Source of the DNA: Promethearchaeota archaeon
GTDB taxonomy: Archaea > Asgardarchaeota > Lokiarchaeia > Sigyniarchaeales > SOKP01
Direction of reading: 5' to 3'
Assembly (NCBI GenBank): GCA_048938855.1
Contig: JBHLLT010000010.1
Span: 32,001-96,000 of the forward strand
DNA length: 64,000 nucleotides
A program made the position numbers and the translations under genes. Shown here one piece after another: positions 414 through 9,824 of this stretch; position 1 is the stretch's first letter, and each line of letters starts with the position of its first letter. The notes under the pieces are model-generated. The model was not told the origin of the DNA. It worked only from the letters and a program-made list of their open reading frames with translations, and ran no database searches.

Positions 414-935
414 ATGAGCCAAGATCCTCAATATAGATTCAAAGTAACTCTTTTTGGGCCTGGTGGTGTAGGTAAAACATCTCTTCTATTGCGTTATATA
501 AAAGATTTTTTTAGTGACGATCTTAAAAAAACTATAGGAAGCAGTTTTCTTATTAAGGATGTAGAAATTGATGATAAAAGTATACGTCTGCTTTTATGGG
601 ATTTAGGTGGGCAACCTCAATTTCACAAACTCAGATCGATATATTTTAAAGGGAGTAATGCTAGCATTGGTGTTTTTGATTTGTCATCAAGTCAAACCCT
701 TCTAAAAATTCCTGGTTGGATAAGTACTATAAAAAAATCAGTATTAAAAACAATTCCTATGCTACTTATAGGTAATAAAGCTGATTTAGAACGAGATGTT
801 GATCGTGAAGAAGCAGAAGATTTAGCTAAAAGGTTAAATTGTGAATATATGGAAACTTCAGCAAAAACAGGAGAAAACGTGGAAAGTGCATTTGAAAAGA
901 TCGCAAAAGCGTGTCTTCAAGATTTAAGCGAATAA
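414..935 (+). CDS. Rab-like small GTPase (Ras superfamily)
   Basis: G1 GPGGVGKTS, G2 TIG, G3 WDLGGQ, G4 NKAD, G5 ETSAK; no C-terminal CAAX/CC tail. Confidence 0.92.
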   Translation: MSQDPQYRFKVTLFGPGGVGKTSLLLRYIKDFFSDDLKKTIGSSFLIKDVEIDDKSIRLLLWDLGGQPQFHKLRSIYFKGSNASIGVFDLSSSQTLLKIPGWISTIKKSVLKTIPMLLIGNKADLERDVDREEAEDLAKRLNCEYMETSAKTGENVESAFEKIAKACLQDLSE

Positions 936-950
936 GTAACTCTATACCCA

Positions 951-1574
951 CTAATCATTAATAATATTTAATTTTTTAAGTTCATTCAATAATTCTTCTG
1001 AATTGGTAAATTTTATACCATTTATTCCTAATTCTTTAGCAGATTTTACATTATTCAATCCATCGTCTATATAAACAATTTGTTTTGGTTTACAACCTGC
1101 CTTTTTGATGGCATACTCAAAAACTCTAGGGTTTGGTTTAATTAAATGAGTTTCATGGGATAAAATCAATTCATCAAACCAATCAATAAATTCCCATCCT
1201 TTCTGTAATATAAAATCCCAGTGACTAGAATTAACATTAGATAAAGCAATTAGCTTATACTGGTTTCTATCTTTTATTTTTCTAAGTAATTCCACAACTT
1301 TAGTATTATAACCAGATATAATACTATTAAAAGCATTAAAAAAATCAGTTTGATCTAACATACAAACTTGGAGGAGATCACAAGCAAGCTGATAAAATTC
1401 ATCATTAGTCATATCCCCTTGATGATACATATCAGATTGTCTAAAAAACTCTAACATGATAGGTGTTTGAGGTTTATTTAAAGGAGATTGAATAATTATA
1501 CTATTATAAAAGTTGGAAAAATCTAAATCTATAATAACGCCTCCTAAATCAAAAATAATAGCCTTAACTTTCAT
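951..1574 (-). CDS. HAD-superfamily phosphatase (YihX-like)
   Basis: FDLGGV motif I, LSN motif II, KP and YIDD motifs. Confidence 0.9.
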   Translation of the reverse strand: MKVKAIIFDLGGVIIDLDFSNFYNSIIIQSPLNKPQTPIMLEFFRQSDMYHQGDMTNDEFYQLACDLLQVCMLDQTDFFNAFNSIISGYNTKVVELLRKIKDRNQYKLIALSNVNSSHWDFILQKGWEFIDWFDELILSHETHLIKPNPRVFEYAIKKAGCKPKQIVYIDDGLNNVKSAKELGINGIKFTNSEELLNELKKLNIIND

Positions 1575-1651
1575 AACAATAAAAATAGATTCTTTATGCT
1601 TAAAATAACAGATCGCATATATATTTTTTTAAATAGATATTAAGAGTTGGC

Positions 1652-3712
1652 TTAATGTCTAAAATAAATTCTTGTCGAAATCTTCCTGAATGGTATTGGT
1701 AATTTATATTTTGGAAAATTTCTTGTATCATCTTCAAGTAAATCTAGTAAATGATCTAATTTCACATTATTTATCTGTTCTGAAGTTTGTTTTTTTAGTC
1801 CAAAAGGTTTACCTATTAGTCTTTTTCTAATTGATATTGTTTGATTCTCTTGTTCCTTTTTACCAATAATTATTGTATAGGGGATCCATTCAATTTCAGA
1901 CTGTCTTATCTTCTTTCCTACAGTTTCTTCTCTATCATCAAAATCTGCTCTAAACTCTTCTCCATTAATAATATTTAATAATTTTTCAGCATATTCATTT
2001 TGCTCATCGCTAACAGATATAATTCGGACTTGTATTGGAGATAACCATGTTTTAAATCCTGGAACTAATTTATGTTTATTTCGAATAGCAGATTCGATCA
2101 AACCCCATAATATTCTTTCTACTGCTCCAGTCGGAGAATTATGGAGAATTATTGGATATTTTACTATACCATCAGTATCAATAAAGGAAATATTATATTT
2201 TTCTCTTTTTATACCGTCATTGTCTACCATAAATTCTAATGAGCTTTCAACATCAATTTGATTGGTAGCTAAGGTAGCACTCCTGTTTTGATTAGATAAT
2301 ACATTTCTTTCAAATTTTAAAATATAGTAGTAATATCGTTGTTCCCATAATTCTAATAATGCAGGATATTTTTCTGTTCTTATTAAATTAATAATCCAGT
2401 CCTTATTTTCAGTATAAAATTCATTGGTTACTCGGAAAATAACAAAAGTTTTAATACCTAAGTCTTTTTCAAGTTCTCTAATTAATTCATATTGTTTGAT
2501 AAACTCATCTACGGAAGATTCAATATCTCTACAAAGCGTATGCATATCTGGCATGATAAAACCACGCAATCTTCTTAAACCTGATAGCTCACCTTCTTGT
2601 TCTCTTCGAAAATCATATTGTTCATATTCATATGCTCTTAATGGAAAATAATGAGGTTTTAAATTCATTTGGGAGAATAAATCAAATAAAAGAAAATCAC
2701 TAGCATATCTTAAGAGATACCTATCTTTGCCCGATTCAAGCCAATAACTTCTCGCGGGAAATCGAGCGGTTTGCGCAGTTAGTTTTTTCTTTTTAACAGT
2801 ATACATTATTGGAGTATCAATGAGTATTGCCCCATAATCAATTAATCTGTCTTCTATAAAATTTTTTATTAAGTTCTTCATAATCACTCCTTTTGTATAC
2901 CACCTTAAATTCCCTGCATCTGTATTGGGATCAAAATCTACTAATTCAAATTCTTTCATCATTTTTATATGAATTGGCTCAATAGCCTTATCTACTTTCC
3001 TTGAACCTAATTCAGATTTTAGAAATGAACGAAATTCTTGGTCCTTTATTTCTTTAGGAAATACCACTTCATTTTCATTAACAATATTTAGATCTAATTC
3101 TTTTCCCGATGTTGTAATAATCTTGAATACTGAATTTTTTATTTGTTCTTCTGGTTTTATTGCTAATTTTACATCTCTATACATTTCTGCCATTTCATGT
3201 CCTAAACAATTAATTTTAAATGATTTATACCATCCAAATGGAGAAAATTTAGCTTCTATTCCTCTGTCGTTTAAATTCTTTGCTATTTTTGGGCAAACTT
3301 CCATAGCATTTTGCTCGCTACTTAAAAATTTGCTTAAATGTGCCCAAGGATATACTAAGACTTTATCGATGTGGTAAAACTCACGATCTTTAATAAGTTC
3401 TACAATTTTTTTTGATTTTCCCTTTAATTCACCCTTCTCAATCTTCTGATTATACACTCTGATTTCTTCATTTCTTTCTCTAACTTTCTCTGGAAAACCA
3501 GTAATTTGTAATATTGCAGCTTCAATTTCCTCTGCTCCTTGTTTTGCTATTAAATTTGTATCATATGTATCTTGATCTTCGACAGAAATAAAACAAACGA
3601 GTATTAATCCTTCCATTTTTATTATTTCTTCTGAAAATTCCTGAGGATTACTGGTTGCTTCTTTATTCTTAACAACTTCAACATCTTGAGAGTGAATTAA
3701 TAATATTTTCAT
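1652..3712 (-). CDS. thrS: Threonyl-tRNA synthetase, archaeal type with N-terminal editing domain
   Basis: MKILLIHS start, YPWAHLS and PFGWYK editing motifs, FRREQ.GEL.GL.RLRGF.MPDMH, C-terminal anticodon-binding domain. Confidence 0.96.
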   Translation of the reverse strand: MKILLIHSQDVEVVKNKEATSNPQEFSEEIIKMEGLILVCFISVEDQDTYDTNLIAKQGAEEIEAAILQITGFPEKVRERNEEIRVYNQKIEKGELKGKSKKIVELIKDREFYHIDKVLVYPWAHLSKFLSSEQNAMEVCPKIAKNLNDRGIEAKFSPFGWYKSFKINCLGHEMAEMYRDVKLAIKPEEQIKNSVFKIITTSGKELDLNIVNENEVVFPKEIKDQEFRSFLKSELGSRKVDKAIEPIHIKMMKEFELVDFDPNTDAGNLRWYTKGVIMKNLIKNFIEDRLIDYGAILIDTPIMYTVKKKKLTAQTARFPARSYWLESGKDRYLLRYASDFLLFDLFSQMNLKPHYFPLRAYEYEQYDFRREQEGELSGLRRLRGFIMPDMHTLCRDIESSVDEFIKQYELIRELEKDLGIKTFVIFRVTNEFYTENKDWIINLIRTEKYPALLELWEQRYYYYILKFERNVLSNQNRSATLATNQIDVESSLEFMVDNDGIKREKYNISFIDTDGIVKYPIILHNSPTGAVERILWGLIESAIRNKHKLVPGFKTWLSPIQVRIISVSDEQNEYAEKLLNIINGEEFRADFDDREETVGKKIRQSEIEWIPYTIIIGKKEQENQTISIRKRLIGKPFGLKKQTSEQINNVKLDHLLDLLEDDTRNFPKYKLPIPFRKISTRIYFRH

Positions 3713-3837
3713 GATAGATCTTTACATTAGCCTTTTAATTTGTATGATATAATAAATTCTAAATATTTTTCTTACTTTTGATAAATAATTATATTCAAAA
3801 TTCAAATTAATTATTATTGAAATTAAATTCTATTATT

Positions 3838-4449
3838 ATGAATCTTAAAAAAGCTTTTTCAGACATAAGTGAGTTATTAGAGATATTATATCATGATAGG
3901 GAAGAGATTTTAAAATTATCTCGAGACATAATTAGAGATTGTAGTATTGCTATAAAAAATGTTCATAGAAAAGAATTTGATAACTTCAATGAACGATTAA
4001 ATTTAATTAAGAGTAAACATCAAGATTTAGTTATATTAGTTAATAAAAACCCTGGAATTTTCTTCAAATATTTGCAAACTCCAGAACAAGAATTTGCTGA
4101 ATCTCGTGTATTTTATTCAATTATTCGAAAGGAAGAGATTCCGTCACCTTCTGATTTAAATATTAATCCTTTAAATTATCTATTAGGGTTAGCTGATGTT
4201 GTCGGAGAATTAAGAAGGTATGCATTAGACAATATAAGAAATTCTCGTGTTGAAGATTTAAATATTATACTAGAAGATATGGATGAGATCTATACAAATT
4301 TGTTTACACTTGATTACCCTACAGGTATAACTCAAGATTTAAGACATAAGGTAGATGTTGCGAGAAATCTAATTGAAAAAACAAGAGGTGATATTTCTCT
4401 CGCAATACAAATGGATGAAGTGAAAAGATGTTTTGAAAACAATATCTAA
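3838..4449 (+). CDS. Translin/TRAX (C3PO-like) family protein
   Basis: REEILKLSRDIIR, QEFAE, YLLGLADVVGELRR, LRHKVD motifs; ATG at 3838 preferred to TTG at 3817. Confidence 0.88.
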   Translation: MNLKKAFSDISELLEILYHDREEILKLSRDIIRDCSIAIKNVHRKEFDNFNERLNLIKSKHQDLVILVNKNPGIFFKYLQTPEQEFAESRVFYSIIRKEEIPSPSDLNINPLNYLLGLADVVGELRRYALDNIRNSRVEDLNIILEDMDEIYTNLFTLDYPTGITQDLRHKVDVARNLIEKTRGDISLAIQMDEVKRCFENNI

Positions 4450-4486
4450 TACCGAATTACCGTATTTAGAATATAAGGAATTAAAG

Positions 4487-4942
4487 ATGAATAATCCAAA
4501 AAAAAAAGTATTAGTTGCTGGTACATTCGATCTTATTCATGCAGGACATATTTATCTTATTAATGAGGCAGCAAAACTAGGTGATGTATTTGTAGTTGTT
4601 GCTACAGATAAAAATCGAGAAATATTTTCGGGTCAACGTCCAATTATTCCTCAAGAACATAGATTAGAGATAATAAGGAATTTGAAACATGTAAAAGATG
4701 CTCGATTAGGAAGAAGTGATAATGATACGCTCAAAACGGTTGAAGAAATCAACCCTGATATTATTCTTTTAGGACCAGATCAAAAATATAGTATTGAAAC
4801 ACTAAAAAAAGGTCTAGCAGAAAAAGGATTAAGTCATATCGAGATTAGAAGACTTGAAAAATATTATGATAAATATGAATTACATAGTTCTAGTTTAATT
4901 AAACAAAAAATTATTGAAAAGAGTAAAGAGAATAAGAAATAG
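4487..4942 (+). CDS. ribL: FAD synthetase (cytidylyltransferase family)
   Basis: GTFDLIHAGH motif, LGPDQ, SSS motif; adjacent to ribK. Confidence 0.85.
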   Translation: MNNPKKKVLVAGTFDLIHAGHIYLINEAAKLGDVFVVVATDKNREIFSGQRPIIPQEHRLEIIRNLKHVKDARLGRSDNDTLKTVEEINPDIILLGPDQKYSIETLKKGLAEKGLSHIEIRRLEKYYDKYELHSSSLIKQKIIEKSKENKK

Positions 4943-4952
4943 ACCACATATT

Positions 4953-5681
4953 ATGGAAGTTAAAGATATTATTTCATCAGAGAATTATGCAAATTGGTTT
5001 GCACTTTATAAACTTTGTCAAATTATTGGAAGTCGGAAATCCATTCATATAAATAGTGTTGAATTTGGGAAGATCCTTAACATATCTCAGCAAACAGCGT
5101 CCAGAAGAATAAGCCAATTAGAGGAAATAGGTTGGATCCAAAGAAAAATTTCGGGAAAAGAACAAATTATCAGAATCACAAAGAAAGGTGCTGATGTTAT
5201 GCTTGCAATGTATAAAGACCTAAAGCAAATCCTTGAAGATATCTTAATAGTGGGAGAAGTTACTGAAGGTATGGGAGAGGGAGGTTATTATGTTAGAATT
5301 AAAGAGTATTATGAGCAATTTAAAAAAAAATTAGGATTTACTCCATATTATGGAACATTAAATCTACAATTAAGTGATCTTAACAAAGAATTATTGGATG
5401 AAAATTTAAAAACTCGAATGCCTATTAGAATAATTGGATTTGAAAAAGAGGAAGAAGATGAAGGAGGCTTAGTAAAACGGACATATGGATCAGTAGATTG
5501 TTACAGTTGCATTATTTCTCGTCTTGATGATCAGGACATTAAAATAGATGCTGCTATACTAAAAATTAAAAGAACCCACCATAAAAAAAATATTGTAGAA
5601 ATACTAGCTTCTCCATTTTTAAGAGATAAACTTGCTTTAAAAGATGGTGAAAGAATAAGAATCGAGTTTTCTAAGGAATAA
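4953..5681 (+). CDS. ribK: CTP-dependent riboflavin kinase with N-terminal winged HTH
   Basis: SQQTASRR HTH, G.GEGGYY, PYYGTLN, RTHH, LRDKL.LKDG. Confidence 0.93.
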   Translation: MEVKDIISSENYANWFALYKLCQIIGSRKSIHINSVEFGKILNISQQTASRRISQLEEIGWIQRKISGKEQIIRITKKGADVMLAMYKDLKQILEDILIVGEVTEGMGEGGYYVRIKEYYEQFKKKLGFTPYYGTLNLQLSDLNKELLDENLKTRMPIRIIGFEKEEEDEGGLVKRTYGSVDCYSCIISRLDDQDIKIDAAILKIKRTHHKKNIVEILASPFLRDKLALKDGERIRIEFSKE

Positions 5682-5707
5682 GCCTATAAATTATTTCTAC
5701 CTCATAA

Positions 5708-6325
5708 TCAATTATTTTTCTTTTTAATTGCATAAAAAATCTTTACCAATCTAAAAGTATATGTTCCTAAAACGAGGAACATAAAGATAAATAAAAATAG
5801 ATTTAATAAATTGCAAAAATAACTGATTACAGAGATTACTACAAGGTAAAATAATCTTTCTGATCTTGCCATGAGTCCAATATCGAAATCCCCTTTAAAA
5901 AACACTTCAGCTCTAGCTCTTGTATAACTGATCATAATAGAAGCGGAGAAGGATATTAAAATAATTAGTTTCATATCAAAAAAATTCCAAAGTAATTGAT
6001 CTTTTGAGTAAAAGTACAAGCCCAAGAAAATAAAAAATTCAGAAATCCTATCCATAAATGAATCAAAAAATCCCCCAAATTTTGATGTATTGTTAGTTAA
6101 TCGAGCGATTGTTCCATCACATCCATCCATAATTCCTGTAATAAATACAAAAATAGAAAAATATAGAAGACTTCGAAAAAAACCTAGGGTAACAAAACTT
6201 ATTATAGAAAAACAAAGCATAATCACTGTGGCGAAATTCGGTGTGATCCCTATTCTGATAAAACCTTTTGAGATTAGTCTAACAAGTGGTTTAAAAAGAT
6301 ATCTAAGTCTAAATTTTGAAGGCAT
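5708..6325 (-). CDS. CDP-alcohol phosphatidyltransferase (archaetidylinositol phosphate synthase-like)
   Basis: TPN motif, DGCDGTIAR...G.FFDSFMDR signature, SYTRARAE. Confidence 0.9.
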   Translation of the reverse strand: MPSKFRLRYLFKPLVRLISKGFIRIGITPNFATVIMLCFSIISFVTLGFFRSLLYFSIFVFITGIMDGCDGTIARLTNNTSKFGGFFDSFMDRISEFFIFLGLYFYSKDQLLWNFFDMKLIILISFSASIMISYTRARAEVFFKGDFDIGLMARSERLFYLVVISVISYFCNLLNLFLFIFMFLVLGTYTFRLVKIFYAIKKKNN

Positions 6326-6449
6326 TTTTTAAATAGTTTTATAGGATAAGTTAAAATATATTTCACATTATAAAATAACATAGTTTTTTTATTTTAGATA
6401 TATTAAATGCATATATTAACAATTTAAACAATAAGGAGATCGAAAGACT

Positions 6450-6755
6450 ATGAAATTACGGTTGGTTTTACAGACAAGGACAAGAAAAGATAAAAACATA
6501 ATATTAAAATTTCCGATATCGCCAAGTAAACATATTGGTTTTATTAATTTTATAAATTTGGCATTAAAACAAGATATACCAATAGAATTATCCTTTGAAA
6601 AGATATCAAAAACTGGTGAACGGGAGGAAAGTAAGATTGTTGGGCAATTTAAACTAAAAGGAAAAGCTGATTCACAGTTATATGCATTAGAAGAGGAAAT
6701 TCAAGATGCAGAACGTAAAAGAAAAAAAATTCAGCAAAAGAGAAAATTACCTTAA
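6450..6755 (+). CDS. Small basic hypothetical protein
   Basis: 101-aa ORF with AGGAG upstream. Confidence 0.75.
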   Translation: MKLRLVLQTRTRKDKNIILKFPISPSKHIGFINFINLALKQDIPIELSFEKISKTGEREESKIVGQFKLKGKADSQLYALEEEIQDAERKRKKIQQKRKLP

Positions 6756-6780: not shown

Positions 6781-8892
6781 TTAATTAATTTTTCTATAAT
6801 CAAACTCCCAAGTCTTTTTGACATAGAGTGAATCATTTATTGTATCATAGATAATTGCTCTTTCACTTAATCCCCCAATATCTTCAGCTTCTACTTCAAT
6901 TTGATGTTTATTTAATTGATCTTTAACAGCATCAATATTTTCTTGATATGTCATATCATAATCTAAAAATAATTTTGCTCCTCCAATAACTAATGCTCTA
7001 ATATTTGAATTTTTTCCTCCATGAAATATGATATTATTATACAAGTCTTTAACTCCTGTATCAATAAATGTATGAGGGAAAAGGAAGTGATAACCTTGTT
7101 TTGAAGCTGATGAAGAAGGTAACGACATATTGGATATAGCAAAAATGTTATTCACAGGATCCTTAAGTATTATACAAATTCCTGATCCTAAACCTTTTAT
7201 GACAAATTTTGTTGCAAGGTCATTTTTATCAAATGAATTGATTAATCCATAGTATCCCATGGGAATATTTAGTTCCCTTTTATCGTTTGGTTTATCTATA
7301 CGATCCATACGTTTTTCATCAAAAATATTGAAACTTTCTTCTGTTTCATTGCCATCTTTTGAAAATTCTTTCATTTGAACTTCATTTATCAAAAATTGTC
7401 GAGTATAATCTCCAGCTTTTATTATTCGGTGTTCAAATTGTTTTTCCTTTTGTTCTATTAATCTCTCTCTTTGATCTACTCGTTTTGTGAGCCGTTCTAA
7501 AATTTCTATGCGATCTTTAACTTCTTCTTCTTTCTCTTTAAGTTCTTTAATCAAATCATTTAATTTCTTTCTCTTTCTTTCAATTTTATTATATTTTTCA
7601 TCAATATATGTAATTCTCTCTTCGATTGCTTTTTCACGTTGCTCTAAAAGCAACTCACGTTGCCGTAACTTTTTGTCCCATTGTTTTAATGAAGATATTT
7701 TTGATTCGTTTTTATTATCATTCATTGATTCTTTTAATTGATTTTTATGATGTTTAAAACCATATCGATTTATTCCGTTATTAATGTCGATGCTAGTAAT
7801 CTTTACTTCTGTTTCTATATTCTCAAGTTTATTCAAATCATTGATATTTATTTCAGGTTTAGAAGTGTTTTTCTTAATTTTTATTTTAGTGTCATTTGAT
7901 ATACTATTAGATTTTGCTTTTATTTTTGGTTGATTATATTTACTATTAACAACTTCACTTATTCTACACATTGACTTTGTTTTAATTGGCTTAATAATCT
8001 CAATTTCAGAATATTTATAGTTTTTAAATAGATTAGAAATTTCATTTTTGAAATTAGCAGTGTGAGAAGAAAAGTTTTTTATATAAAAACGATCTCGCAT
8101 ATTAATTGACTTAAAATTAGTAATTTTAAGAGGAAGGGTCTCAGAGCCTCCTAATATTAGTAAACCTCCATCATAAAGCCGTGATTCTATCGTTTGTAAA
8201 AGTTTTTCTCTTGCAAATTGATTTATATAAATAAAAAAATTCCTGCAAAAGATAATATCATATTTTCCTTTTTTTTGATGTCCCTTTGTAATGTCTTCCT
8301 GAATAAATTCAACCTTACTTTTAATATCTTCTGAAAGATTAAACCTTGGACCAAAATCAGTGTCTTCTTTTGAAAAATAAGCTTTTAAATATATGTCTGG
8401 AGTTTCATGTACTGGATAATCTCCATAAACACCTTCTTTTGCAATTTTAAGAGCTGCTGGATCAATATCTGATGCTATTATTTCAAAGTCAGGGAAATTT
8501 TTATCAGCCTTCTTCAATCGGTCCAAGATCATTGCAATAGAATAGGGTTCATCTCCAGTAGCACATGGTGCTGACCATATTCGAATAATCCTATTTGAGT
8601 ATTTAACATAGGATTTGATAAAATTCTCAAAATTTTTGAAAGCCTTATAATTTCTGAAGAAGTAAGTATAGTTAATAGTGAATTTATCCAAAAAAAGGTC
8701 AATTTCAATAGGATTTTCACGAATATATTTTATATAATCTTGATAGTAATTTAGATTTAAGTTTTTCATCCTAAAATCGATACGTTTTTCAAGAAATTTT
8801 CTCTGATAATGTTCAAATTTCATTCCTGTTACAGTTCTTAACTCCTCTATAAGAGCATCTATGGATGAAGGATTAATTGATGATACGGAAAT
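6781..8892 (-). CDS. CheR-type methyltransferase – coiled coil – CheD-like fusion protein; probable ATT start at 8892 (first ATG at 8823)
   Basis: CheR motifs TINYTYFFR, RIWSAPCATGDEPYSIA, DID, DIIFCRN; C-terminal CheD-like LGSG/DP/LP/GGAK/EDIGG; upstream in-frame extension IDALIEELRTVTGM resembles the CheR N-terminal helix. Confidence 0.88.
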   Translation of the reverse strand: MSVSSINPSSIDALIEELRTVTGMKFEHYQRKFLEKRIDFRMKNLNLNYYQDYIKYIRENPIEIDLFLDKFTINYTYFFRNYKAFKNFENFIKSYVKYSNRIIRIWSAPCATGDEPYSIAMILDRLKKADKNFPDFEIIASDIDPAALKIAKEGVYGDYPVHETPDIYLKAYFSKEDTDFGPRFNLSEDIKSKVEFIQEDITKGHQKKGKYDIIFCRNFFIYINQFAREKLLQTIESRLYDGGLLILGGSETLPLKITNFKSINMRDRFYIKNFSSHTANFKNEISNLFKNYKYSEIEIIKPIKTKSMCRISEVVNSKYNQPKIKAKSNSISNDTKIKIKKNTSKPEININDLNKLENIETEVKITSIDINNGINRYGFKHHKNQLKESMNDNKNESKISSLKQWDKKLRQRELLLEQREKAIEERITYIDEKYNKIERKRKKLNDLIKELKEKEEEVKDRIEILERLTKRVDQRERLIEQKEKQFEHRIIKAGDYTRQFLINEVQMKEFSKDGNETEESFNIFDEKRMDRIDKPNDKRELNIPMGYYGLINSFDKNDLATKFVIKGLGSGICIILKDPVNNIFAISNMSLPSSSASKQGYHFLFPHTFIDTGVKDLYNNIIFHGGKNSNIRALVIGGAKLFLDYDMTYQENIDAVKDQLNKHQIEVEAEDIGGLSERAIIYDTINDSLYVKKTWEFDYRKIN

Positions 8893-9074
8893 TTTTTACA
8901 CCAAAACGCCTGCTATTAAGATTTTTTACTCTATTACCATAAAAATGTAATATTATTAATATTTTAGGGAAGAGAAATTTGTGATTGAGGGCGTAACAAA
9001 ACAGAACAACAGATTTTGTGGTAAAAAAATTTTAAGTATTAATTTTTTGAATCGTTGTAATAAAATCATAAAGA

Positions 9075-9824
9075 TTAATTTAGAGAGATGAAACCTAGTT
9101 TAATGAGATTTTTACATATATTATATACTTGATTTTGTTGTATATTTAGACTACCGGATATTTGAGTTATCGATTTTCTTCCATCTATTTGATCATAAAC
9201 CTTAAATGAATTTTCTCCTGTTAAATAATATCTCGGATTTATTTTTTTAGCAGTAGTGAAAATGGGTACATAATTATAATATTCAGGAGTTATTTCTACT
9301 GACTCCGATTCAATTAGTTTTTTTTGAATTTCAACTGGTTCGCGTTCAAAACTTCTTATCCAATCAACAACTTGATCATTATATTGAGCTTGCTCGTATT
9401 TTTGCTCCTCTTCAATAATACGTTCAATAACAGCATGGAATGATTCAAAACTGTTTAATCTTCCATTCCACTTTAAAATTTGATCGATCTCAAATTCTTT
9501 TAAAAATAAATCAGAAATTTTTTTTAAAATCTCTTGCACATCATTATGATTAGATTTTTTATCATATGTAGCAAGATAAATTAAATCAGGAATGATCTTG
9601 TCTTTTAAAAAAGAAAGCTTTAAATTATTATTCGAAAGTTTTAATTCACTTATTGTTCCTAAATCCTCAAATGAATCAGAAAATGAATTTAATGCTGAAA
9701 AAAACCCCGATACCATTATTAAATCATCTATTTCTGAAAATACATTTTTAATATTAGTTGAATTACACAAACTCTTAGATAATAGTGGTAATCCATCTTT
9801 TATAATCAGTACGTCGCAAATCAT
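9075..9824 (-). CDS. Longin-domain protein with C-terminal NPRL2-like winged-helix region
   Basis: N-terminal IIKDGLPL...SGFFSALNSF longin pattern; C-terminal VPIF...IDG..SI..I...L.......ICKNL...G. Confidence 0.72.
   Translation of the reverse strand: MICDVLIIKDGLPLLSKSLCNSTNIKNVFSEIDDLIMVSGFFSALNSFSDSFEDLGTISELKLSNNNLKLSFLKDKIIPDLIYLATYDKKSNHNDVQEILKKISDLFLKEFEIDQILKWNGRLNSFESFHAVIERIIEEEQKYEQAQYNDQVVDWIRSFEREPVEIQKKLIESESVEITPEYYNYVPIFTTAKKINPRYYLTGENSFKVYDQIDGRKSITQISGSLNIQQNQVYNICKNLIKLGFISLN

What the first reader, a model, noticed from the sequence alone, without database searches (positions are those of the whole stretch)
6781..8892. Orphan CheR–coiled-coil–CheD fusion with a substituted CheD catalytic dyad
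Seen: intact CheR SAM-binding motifs, a roughly 100-aa E/Q/K/R-rich coiled coil (LEQREKAIEER, IEQKEKQFE), and a C-terminal CheD-like domain where LGSC reads LGSG and H-x-x-LP reads N-x-x-LP. No chemoreceptor, cheA, cheW, cheB or archaellum gene is in the window. Known: CheR methylates Glu residues in receptor coiled coils, and CheD deamidates Gln using a Cys-His pair. Inference: CheD has become a non-catalytic docking module and the protein methylates a non-chemotaxis coiled-coil target, possibly its own linker.
Basis: partly seen in the sequence, partly recalled or inferred. Interest (0 to 1): 0.75.

Follow-up and report, generated by a model that had tools for sequence, protein, structure and literature searches.

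The report
Asgard CheR fused to dead CheD
This gene joins a working-looking chemoreceptor methyltransferase (CheR), through a floppy linker and a rod of fixed length, to a catalytically dead copy of the receptor deamidase CheD; it is a conserved accessory of chemoreceptor signalling in one family of Loki-type Asgard archaea, not an orphan with a new target.

Summary
Window 6781-8892 (-) encodes CheR_N + CheR, about 105 disordered residues, a 115-residue helix and a CheD-fold domain. In that domain all three catalytic positions are replaced (Thr to Ile, Cys to Gly, His to Asn).

The scan has met this family before on other DNA, with the same verdict; my tests agree independently. In 112 fused homologues the Cys is never present. 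The CheC/receptor-contact motif (GGAK-L-F) is kept.

"Orphan" is wrong for the genome. It holds four intact chemoreceptors with canonical methylation sites and a CheB. The fusion is its only CheR and its only CheD.

- Of 34 other fusion-bearing species, 29 have CheW and 33 have receptors.
- In this genus the gene is intact only in the four receptor-bearing genomes.
- In the seven receptor-less genomes it is a remnant or gone from the same slot.
- The protein carries no methylation consensus, so self-methylation is unsupported.

Best reading: a receptor methyltransferase anchored to receptors by a dead CheD.

No CheA or CheW is in this assembly, but the assembly has a gap exactly where a relative carries its che cluster, so true loss is unproven.

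The gene most likely starts at ATT 8892, behind a GGTG ribosome-binding site.

The parts
6781..8892 (-). Whole gene for the CheR / linker / rod / pseudo-CheD protein: 703 aa from ATT 8892, or 680 aa from ATG 8823; stop TAA at 6781-6783
8899..8902 (-). GGTG, a Shine-Dalgarno-like site 6 nt upstream of the ATT start. The in-frame TAA at 8896-8898 lies in the spacer.
   Evidence: GGTG + 6-8 nt + ATT/ATC/ATA recurs in most of the other species compared
8890..8892 (-). Probable non-canonical start codon ATT
   Evidence: The 23 codons up to ATG 8823 are conserved as peptide: 100 third-position changes against 28 and 26 at the first and second positions. None of these codons is ATG, GTG or TTG. In L019 the 'M1' codon is CTT. 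CheR_N passes its cut-off only with the extension.
8710..8859 (-). CheR N-terminal all-alpha domain (PF03705)
   Evidence: 38.4 bits, profile positions 4-53 of 53
8095..8673 (-). CheR SAM-dependent methyltransferase domain, with motifs TINYTYFFR, IWSAPCATGDEPYS, ASDID and CRNFFIY
7705..8019 (-). Disordered K/N/S-rich linker (residues 269-373); length varies across the family (40-129)
7369..7713 (-). Long E/K/R-rich helix (residues 371-485), probably a coiled-coil rod. Its length is conserved: median 114 residues, interquartile range 112-115.
6784..7311 (-). CheD-fold domain (residues 505-680) without the catalytic triad
7180..7182 (-). Gly548 at the position of the CheD nucleophile Cys27
7129..7131 (-). 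Asn565 at the position of CheD His44. The family has His 87, Asn 15, Tyr 10.
7198..7200 (-). Ile542 at the position of CheD Thr21
6967..6972 (-). Leu618-Phe619, equivalent to the B. subtilis CheD M101/F102 contact with CheC; retained
   Evidence: PMC3513319

Best explanation
The gene encodes an accessory chemoreceptor glutamate methyltransferase.

Its CheR half (N-terminal helical domain plus SAM-binding domain) looks catalytically intact. It methylates the Glu sites of the organism's methyl-accepting chemoreceptors.

Its C-terminal CheD-fold domain has lost the Thr/Cys/His triad, so it cannot deamidate. It keeps the surface that CheD uses to bind the methylation-site helix of receptors, and CheC, which mimics that helix. 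It therefore serves as a docking foot.

A rod of conserved length (about 114 residues, roughly 17 nm if straight) and a flexible linker of about 100 residues then let the tethered CheR sweep neighbouring receptor sites. Functionally this resembles the pentapeptide tether of E. coli CheR.

Shown: the domain make-up, the loss of the triad across the family, retention of the fold and the contact motif, the conserved rod length, co-occurrence with MCPs, and decay without them.

Inferred: methylation of MCPs, docking through the dead CheD, dimerisation of the rod, and the sweep.

In this genome the fusion is the only CheR and the only CheD. It would work with the dispersed CheB on the four MCPs.
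For: Domains and folds.

The triad is lost in every one of 112 fused homologues, while G614, G615 and GGAK-L-F stay conserved. B. subtilis work shows that CheD's binding to receptors and CheC matters more than its deamidase activity. It also shows that M101/F102 lie at the interface and that cheD mutants have poorly methylated receptors (PMC3513319).

Standalone CheD in relatives' che clusters keeps LGSC and His, so the fusion's domain is a diverged paralogue (38% identity).

Substrates exist. The four G000 MCPs are intact and carry AASEEIAS, SAEQQTAS and ASMEEISA-type sites, and an intact REC-CheB is present.

Co-occurrence:
- MCPs are in 34 of the 35 genomes that carry the locus; the exception holds only a truncated copy.
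- CheW is in 29 of the 34 other fusion-bearing genomes.
- In a 201-genome sample of the phylum, MCPs are in 24 and CheW in 26.

Within the genus, the gene is intact in the 4 MCP-bearing genomes. The 7 MCP-less genomes split as follows:
- an internally deleted, frame-shifted remnant in G132;
- a C-terminal stump in G156;
- clean absence from the same slot between the two conserved neighbours in the other 5.

G204, G229 and G234 have CheW, and the fusion is their only detected CheR.

The four MCPs have no aromatic C-terminal pentapeptide, so another tether would be useful.
Against: - No binding or methylation was measured; docking by the dead CheD is inferred from conservation only.
- Most fusion-bearing genomes also have one or two ordinary CheRs, so the fusion's added value is unknown.
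- The gene never lies in the che cluster. It sits in a housekeeping syntenic block.
- In this assembly no CheA, CheW or CheC was found, so the pathway it would serve is incomplete as seen.
- The genomes compared are related, so the co-occurrence counts overstate the number of independent events.
- The AlphaFold2 inter-domain arrangement is unreliable (pTM 0.41).
Confidence: 0.6

Rival explanations
1. One reading: the protein has left chemotaxis and methylates a non-receptor coiled-coil target, possibly its own linker, with the dead CheD as a docking module for that target.
For: The gene is far from any che gene and sits in a housekeeping block. No CheA or CheW is in this assembly. The rod has a few strongly conserved charged residues: E390, R452, E460, Q462 and R466.
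Against: This protein has no [ASTG]xx[EQ][EQ]xx[ASTG] site, and none sits at a conserved column of the rod in the family. The gene tracks MCP presence and decays when MCPs are lost. Canonical sites exist on four MCPs in the same genome.
Confidence: 0.07
2. The dead CheD domain docks on CheC rather than on receptors. CheR would then be recruited or released according to CheY-P, as in the B. subtilis CheC/CheD/CheY-P adaptation circuit.
For: The retained L-F pair corresponds to the M101/F102 CheC contact, which is conserved in species that have CheC. CheC is present in relatives' che clusters.
Against: No CheC is detected in this genome, where the fusion is intact. The CheC site mimics the receptor site, so the two partners cannot be told apart by sequence.
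Confidence: 0.15
3. The CheD-fold domain is a regulator or 'reader' rather than an anchor. It would sense the amidation or methylation state of receptor sites, or bind CheR's product or substrate helix, and gate CheR activity (a reader-writer).
For: The pocket motifs other than the nucleophile are conserved. The conserved rod length suggests defined geometry.
Against: Nothing distinguishes this from simple anchoring. The AlphaFold2 model gives no confident contact between the CheR and CheD domains.
Confidence: 0.1
4. The domain is still a hydrolase that uses other residues: Ser at the Cys position in some members, or Cys550 here.
For: 20 of 112 members have Ser at the nucleophile position together with His. 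This copy has Cys two residues downstream.
Against: This copy has Gly, Asn and Ile at all three triad positions. Cys550 is kept in only 13 of 112. Gly, which cannot act as a nucleophile, is the majority residue.
Confidence: 0.05

Closest known systems
CheR protein-glutamate O-methyltransferase (B. subtilis 5FTW; Salmonella 1AF7/1BC5; P. aeruginosa CheR1 5XLY)
   Same: The N-terminal helical domain and the SAM-binding domain, with the same motifs and fold (5ftw TM 0.81; E 1.8e-34).
   Different: It carries a C-terminal extension of about 430 residues: a disordered linker, a 115-residue rod and a dead CheD. It is encoded outside the che cluster. Its receptors have no pentapeptide.
CheD chemoreceptor glutamine deamidase / methylesterase (T. 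maritima 2F9Z; B. subtilis CheD)
   Same: The fold (TM 0.89, rmsd 2.1 A), the GLGS, GGA-x-[LM]-F and GG motifs, and the contact residue F.
   Different: Thr21, Cys27 and His44 are replaced by Ile, Gly and Asn. It scores far below the NCBIfam equivalog cut-offs (72 against 240 bits). It is fused to CheR.
Rare non-Asgard CheR-CheD fusions (P0117, P0121-P0125; 461-542 aa; high-G+C, presumably bacterial, origin not checked)
   Same: The same domain order, CheR_N-CheR-CheD.
   Different: Their total length leaves no room for the roughly 220-residue linker and rod (checked in P0117). All keep T-x-LGSC and N-H, so their CheD looks active.
CheR with accessory targeting parts: CheR-TPR (WspC/FrzF type, PMC3447774) and the pentapeptide tether of E. 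coli-type CheR
   Same: The principle of an extra module or tether that localises CheR to its receptors.
   Different: The module here is a pseudo-enzyme derived from another receptor-modifying enzyme. There is no TPR and no receptor pentapeptide.

Membership tests
CheR methyltransferase (PF01739 + PF03705) | Profile match above the curated cut-offs for both domains | tested here: met
   PF01739 scores 159.6 bits against 27. PF03705 scores 38.4 against 27 once the ATT-started N-terminus is included.
CheR methyltransferase (PF01739 + PF03705) | CheR fold and SAM-binding / active-site motifs | tested here: met
   Foldseek gives 5ftw TM 0.81. The motifs align with 5FTW and 5XLY and are invariant in the family: T53, F55, F56, R57, W83, S84, G90, E92, D119, D121, R194, N195.
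CheR methyltransferase (PF01739 + PF03705) | SAM-dependent methylation of receptor Glu residues | not testable with these tools
   Only indirect support: consensus sites on the genome's MCPs and co-occurrence.
CheD deamidase (PF03975; NCBIfam CheD equivalogs) | Pfam domain match and CheD fold | tested here: met
   51.6 bits against 25; 2f9z_C TM 0.89.
CheD deamidase (PF03975; NCBIfam CheD equivalogs) | Catalytic triad Cys27-His44-Thr21 (T. maritima numbering; the triad is recalled from the 2F9Z literature, the positions were read from the alignment) | tested here: not met
   Gly548, Asn565 and Ile542. Cys and Thr are absent in 112 of 112 family members.
CheD deamidase (PF03975; NCBIfam CheD equivalogs) | Score above the equivalog cut-off | tested here: not met
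   The best is NF041119, 72.1 bits against 240.
CheD deamidase (PF03975; NCBIfam CheD equivalogs) | Binding to the receptor methylation helix / CheC | not testable with these tools
   The interface pair L618-F619 is retained (L 94, F 93 of 111); binding itself is untested.
Complete chemosensory pathway in this genome (MCP, CheA, CheW, CheY, CheR, CheB) | All core parts present | tested here: inconclusive
   MCP x4, CheB x1 and CheR x1 (the fusion) are found. CheW, the CheA dimerisation domain, CheC and archaellin are not found. The assembly breaks where a relative has its che cluster.
Pentapeptide-tethered CheR system | Aromatic C-terminal pentapeptide on the receptors | tested here: not met
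   The four MCP C-termini contain no Trp, Phe or Tyr in their last 12 residues, so they cannot hold such a pentapeptide.
CheR-TPR (WspC/FrzF type) | TPR repeats C-terminal to CheR | tested here: not met
   No TPR-repeat family was found apart from one weak hit far below its cut-off (PF25773, E 0.053, 14 bits against 27). TPR-bearing CheRs appear only as distant hits (P0118-P0120).

The most novel reading that the evidence does not exclude
In this organism, and in at least one other species (G210: 9 MCPs, the fusion, one more CheR, the dispersed CheB, no CheW), the chemoreceptors, the CheR-pseudoCheD protein and a dispersed CheB may form a methylation-based receptor system. That system would work without CheA or CheW. 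It would signal through other partners, for example the kinase-less HisKA-REC protein and the small proteins of unknown family encoded directly beside one MCP. The dead CheD would then be the piece that holds the modification enzyme on kinase-free receptors.
Probability: 0.12. Interest if true: 0.8.

Novelty: new variant of a known kind. Interest (0 to 1): 0.5.

Why it matters
It would be a clear case of a signalling enzyme (CheD) turned into a pseudo-enzyme anchor for its partner enzyme (CheR). That would be a third way, besides pentapeptide tethers and TPR domains, of keeping CheR on receptor arrays. In my full-text searches I found no paper describing it.

It occurs in the archaeal group closest to eukaryotes, whose chemosensory clusters lack a known motor output. 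Knowing which proteins sit on the receptors helps in working out what those receptors control.

For annotation:
- The protein should not be called 'chemoreceptor glutamine deamidase CheD'.
- Gene callers cut off its N-terminal helix, because the gene starts at ATT.

Tried and rejected
Neighbourhoods were taken instead from the search for related loci and from my own ORF clustering.

2. Literature. Four full-text searches found no paper on a CheR-CheD fusion or on Asgard adaptation enzymes. This covers the held library only.

3. Is the che cluster truly lost from this genome?
- Proteins of the G202 che cluster found no counterpart in G000 for CheA, CheW or CheC. They found only paralogue-level hits for CheB, CheD and CheY.
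- Synteny with G202 stops at the very end of G000 contig C52. More than 80 kb of G202 beyond that point has no orthologue in G000. Neither deletion nor a binning gap can be shown.

4. Laying the contigs of four metagenome runs on the G202 flank and che start at 80% likeness was not usable.
- Many related organisms are present.
- G000-G202 identity (81-85%) sits at the threshold.
- An uncovered part proves nothing.
- One useful by-product: a 4.2-kb contig of the probable source run has the same depth as G000's contigs (about 35). It carries a gene that is missing from the assembly and runs past the C52 end, so the assembly is incomplete there.

5. Functional link to the upstream longin-like gene: rejected. 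It is adjacent in about 30 of 33 loci, but it is present in 40 of 40 genomes of the family, whereas the fusion is intact in 5 of the 41 sampled, this one included.

6. Cys550 as a replacement nucleophile: rejected on conservation (13 of 112).

7. 'GTG TAA' as a start codon followed by stop read-through: rejected. L019 and L024 lack the GTG yet keep the ATT and the conserved peptide.

Full report
**What is there**

On the minus strand an open frame runs from the stop at 6781-6783 up to a stop at 8896-8898. Numbering below follows the 680-aa ATG-started product.
- Pfam finds a CheR SAM-binding domain at residues 51-243 (E 8e-47) and a CheD domain at 568-670 (E 1e-13, above its cut-off).
- NCBIfam CheD equivalogs match only far below their cut-offs (72 against 240 bits).
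- An AlphaFold2 model built on 38 family members (mean pLDDT 73.8) gives four parts: a CheR body (1-265), a disordered stretch (269-373), one uninterrupted helix (371-485) and a confident CheD-fold domain (505-680).
- Foldseek returns B. subtilis CheR 5FTW (TM 0.81) and T. maritima CheD 2F9Z chain C (TM 0.89, rmsd 2.1 A).

**The active site**

The alignment with 2F9Z puts Gly548 at the nucleophile Cys, Asn565 at the His and Ile542 at the Thr.

**The family**

A search of 5.8 billion proteins returns more than 110 clusters of the same fusion. All are from Asgard (Promethearchaeota, Loki-type) metagenome genomes. In 112 members with the CheD part:
- the Cys column is G 89, S 20, E 2, D 1;
- the Thr column is I 101, V 8, A 2, M 1;
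- the His column is H 87, N 15, Y 10;
- the Cys of GSGIC is present in only 13.

The domain is nevertheless under constraint. G614 and G615 are invariant. The pair L618-F619 is kept in 94 and 93 of 111. In B. subtilis CheD this pair is M101/F102 at the CheC interface. That work found that CheD's binding role outweighs its deamidase activity and that cheD mutants methylate receptors poorly (PMC3513319).

Standalone CheD genes inside the che clusters of close relatives keep LGSC and the His. They are 38% identical to the fusion's domain. The fusion's CheD is thus a diverged, disabled paralogue.

A few non-Asgard CheR-CheD fusions exist (461-542 aa; high-G+C sequences, presumably bacterial). They are too short to hold the long linker and rod, and all keep Thr, Cys and His.

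**Linker and rod**

The disordered part varies in length (40-129 residues). The helix does not: median 114, interquartile range 112-115. Its hydrophobic spacing peaks at 7. That fits a coiled-coil rod used as a spacer.

This protein has no match to the methylation consensus [ASTG]xx[EQ][EQ]xx[ASTG]. No such site sits at a conserved rod column in the family. Self-methylation on the canonical pattern is not supported.

**Is it an orphan?**

In the window, yes. The neighbours are a riboflavin kinase, a CDP-alcohol phosphatidyltransferase, a nucleotidyltransferase, threonyl-tRNA synthetase (my reading of the 686-aa product; no profile was run on it) and two conserved small genes. This block is syntenic in about 30 of 33 other loci.

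In the genome, no. The assembly is 3.95 Mb in 93 contigs, 97% complete with 7% contamination. It contains:
- four intact MCP genes, each with three or four overlapping consensus matches (AASEEIAS, SAEQQTAS, ASMEEISA) and no aromatic C-terminal pentapeptide;
- one intact REC-CheB.

The fusion is the only CheR and the only CheD. CheW, the CheA dimerisation domain, CheC and archaellin were not found.

**Comparative evidence**

- Of 34 other species with the locus, 29 have CheW and a che cluster, and 33 have MCPs. The one without MCPs carries only a truncated copy.
- In a 201-genome sample of the phylum, CheW is in 26 and MCPs are in 24.
- Most fusion-bearing genomes also have one or two ordinary CheRs. 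In three genomes with CheW the fusion is the only CheR detected.

In the window's own genus:

| Genomes | MCPs | State of the fusion gene |
|---|---|---|
| G000, G150, G192, G195 | present | intact |
| G132 | none | remnant: residues 1-266 joined out of frame to 572-680 |
| G156 | none | stump: residues 562-680 only |
| G008, G049, G171, G177, G189 | none | gone; the two flanking genes abut at the same slot |

So the gene is lost when receptors are lost. These genomes are kin, so the counts are not independent. The two different remnants do show at least two separate decays.

**The neighbour**

The upstream 249-aa gene folds as a longin-like domain plus a winged helix. The gene is present in 40 of 40 genomes of the family, with or without the fusion. 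The adjacency therefore reflects synteny and is no evidence of a functional link.

**This genome's missing kinase**

The dispersed CheB has 69-83% identical orthologues outside the che cluster in four relatives. One of them, G210, also lacks CheW but has nine MCPs.

G000 therefore holds every dispersed part and lacks exactly the clustered ones. Two explanations remain:
- Assembly gap. Synteny with G202 ends at the end of contig C52, and more than 80 kb beyond has no counterpart. A contig of G000-like depth in the probable source run continues past that end with a gene absent from the assembly.
- True loss of the core with retention of a receptor-modification module.

I cannot decide between them. 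The gap is the more economical reading.

**Start codon**

The ORF listing begins the gene at ATG 8823. Several points argue for an earlier start.
- The 23 codons upstream are conserved as peptide in 13 other species. Third-position changes outnumber first- and second-position changes (100 against 28 and 26).
- These codons contain no ATG, GTG or TTG.
- In L019 the 'M1' codon is CTT.
- CheR_N passes its cut-off only with the extension.
- A GGTG lies 6-8 nt before a conserved ATT (ATC or ATA in two species).

**Verdict**

The 'orphan with a non-chemotaxis or self target' half is not.

The best reading is a receptor methyltransferase anchored by a pseudo-CheD through a fixed-length rod and a flexible tether. 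The binding and the methylation themselves are untested.

This scan has already described the family on other DNA, and my independent tests agree. New here:
- the receptor-linked decay series within one genus;
- retention of the interface motif;
- the conserved rod length;
- the test that uncouples the longin neighbour;
- the intact-triad fusions outside Asgard archaea, as a contrast;
- the ATT start;
- this genome's pattern of dispersed parts only.

Noticed in passing
window 8890-8902 (-): The gene appears to start at ATT, 6 nt behind a GGTG ribosome-binding site, with an in-frame TAA in the spacer. The arrangement recurs in most of the 13 other species compared. Gene callers therefore truncate the N-terminal CheR helix.
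   Followed up: yes
window 9075-9824 (-): The 249-aa gene directly upstream on the same strand folds as a longin-like domain plus a C-terminal winged helix. Its top structural hits are the GATOR1 and yeast SEA complexes, the VAMP7 longin domain and adaptor sigma subunits. It is present in 40 of 40 genomes of the family, with or without the fusion.
   Followed up: yes
window 6450-6755 (+): A 101-aa gene convergent with the fusion is conserved in 29 of 33 loci and retained where the fusion is lost. It has no Pfam match and its function is unknown.
   Followed up: partly
window 414-935 (+): A small Ras/Rab-like GTPase (173 aa, GPGGVGKTS P-loop; named from the motif only, no profile was run) belongs to the same conserved syntenic block in 17 loci.
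   Followed up: no
L106 (G000:C49:247000-257000), genes at 2876-6621 (-): One MCP (277 aa) sits in a co-oriented row of genes. The others are a 102-aa membrane protein, a HisKA-REC protein with no ATPase domain, a 272-aa protein related to the first gene of relatives' che clusters, and a 118-aa protein without a Pfam match. This may be an alternative output for a receptor.
   Followed up: partly
L006 (G000:C49:56493-60032), gene at 1483-2628 (-): A REC-CheB lies outside any che cluster, next to a ribosomal protein L11-like gene. It has 69-83% identical orthologues in four relatives, which carry cluster CheBs in addition, except G210. Its REC domain scores below the Pfam cut-off.
   Followed up: partly
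G000 contig C52 end; L092 9512-10260: A 4.2-kb contig of the probable source run has the same depth as G000's contigs. It carries a gene absent from the assembly and continues past the end of contig C52, so the assembly has a gap at the place where a relative has its che cluster.
   Followed up: partly
P0117, P0121-P0125, P0126, P0128, P0129: Rare non-Asgard CheD fusions exist: CheR-CheD, a 320-aa protein with REC and CheD domains, and CheD joined to REC-CheB. All keep the Thr/Cys/His triad.
   Followed up: partly
L095 3459-4611 (G132) and L096 4630-4986 (G156): Two different remnants of the fusion gene lie at the syntenic slot in genomes without MCPs. One is an internal deletion with a frame change; the other is a C-terminal stump abutting the longin gene.
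   Followed up: yes
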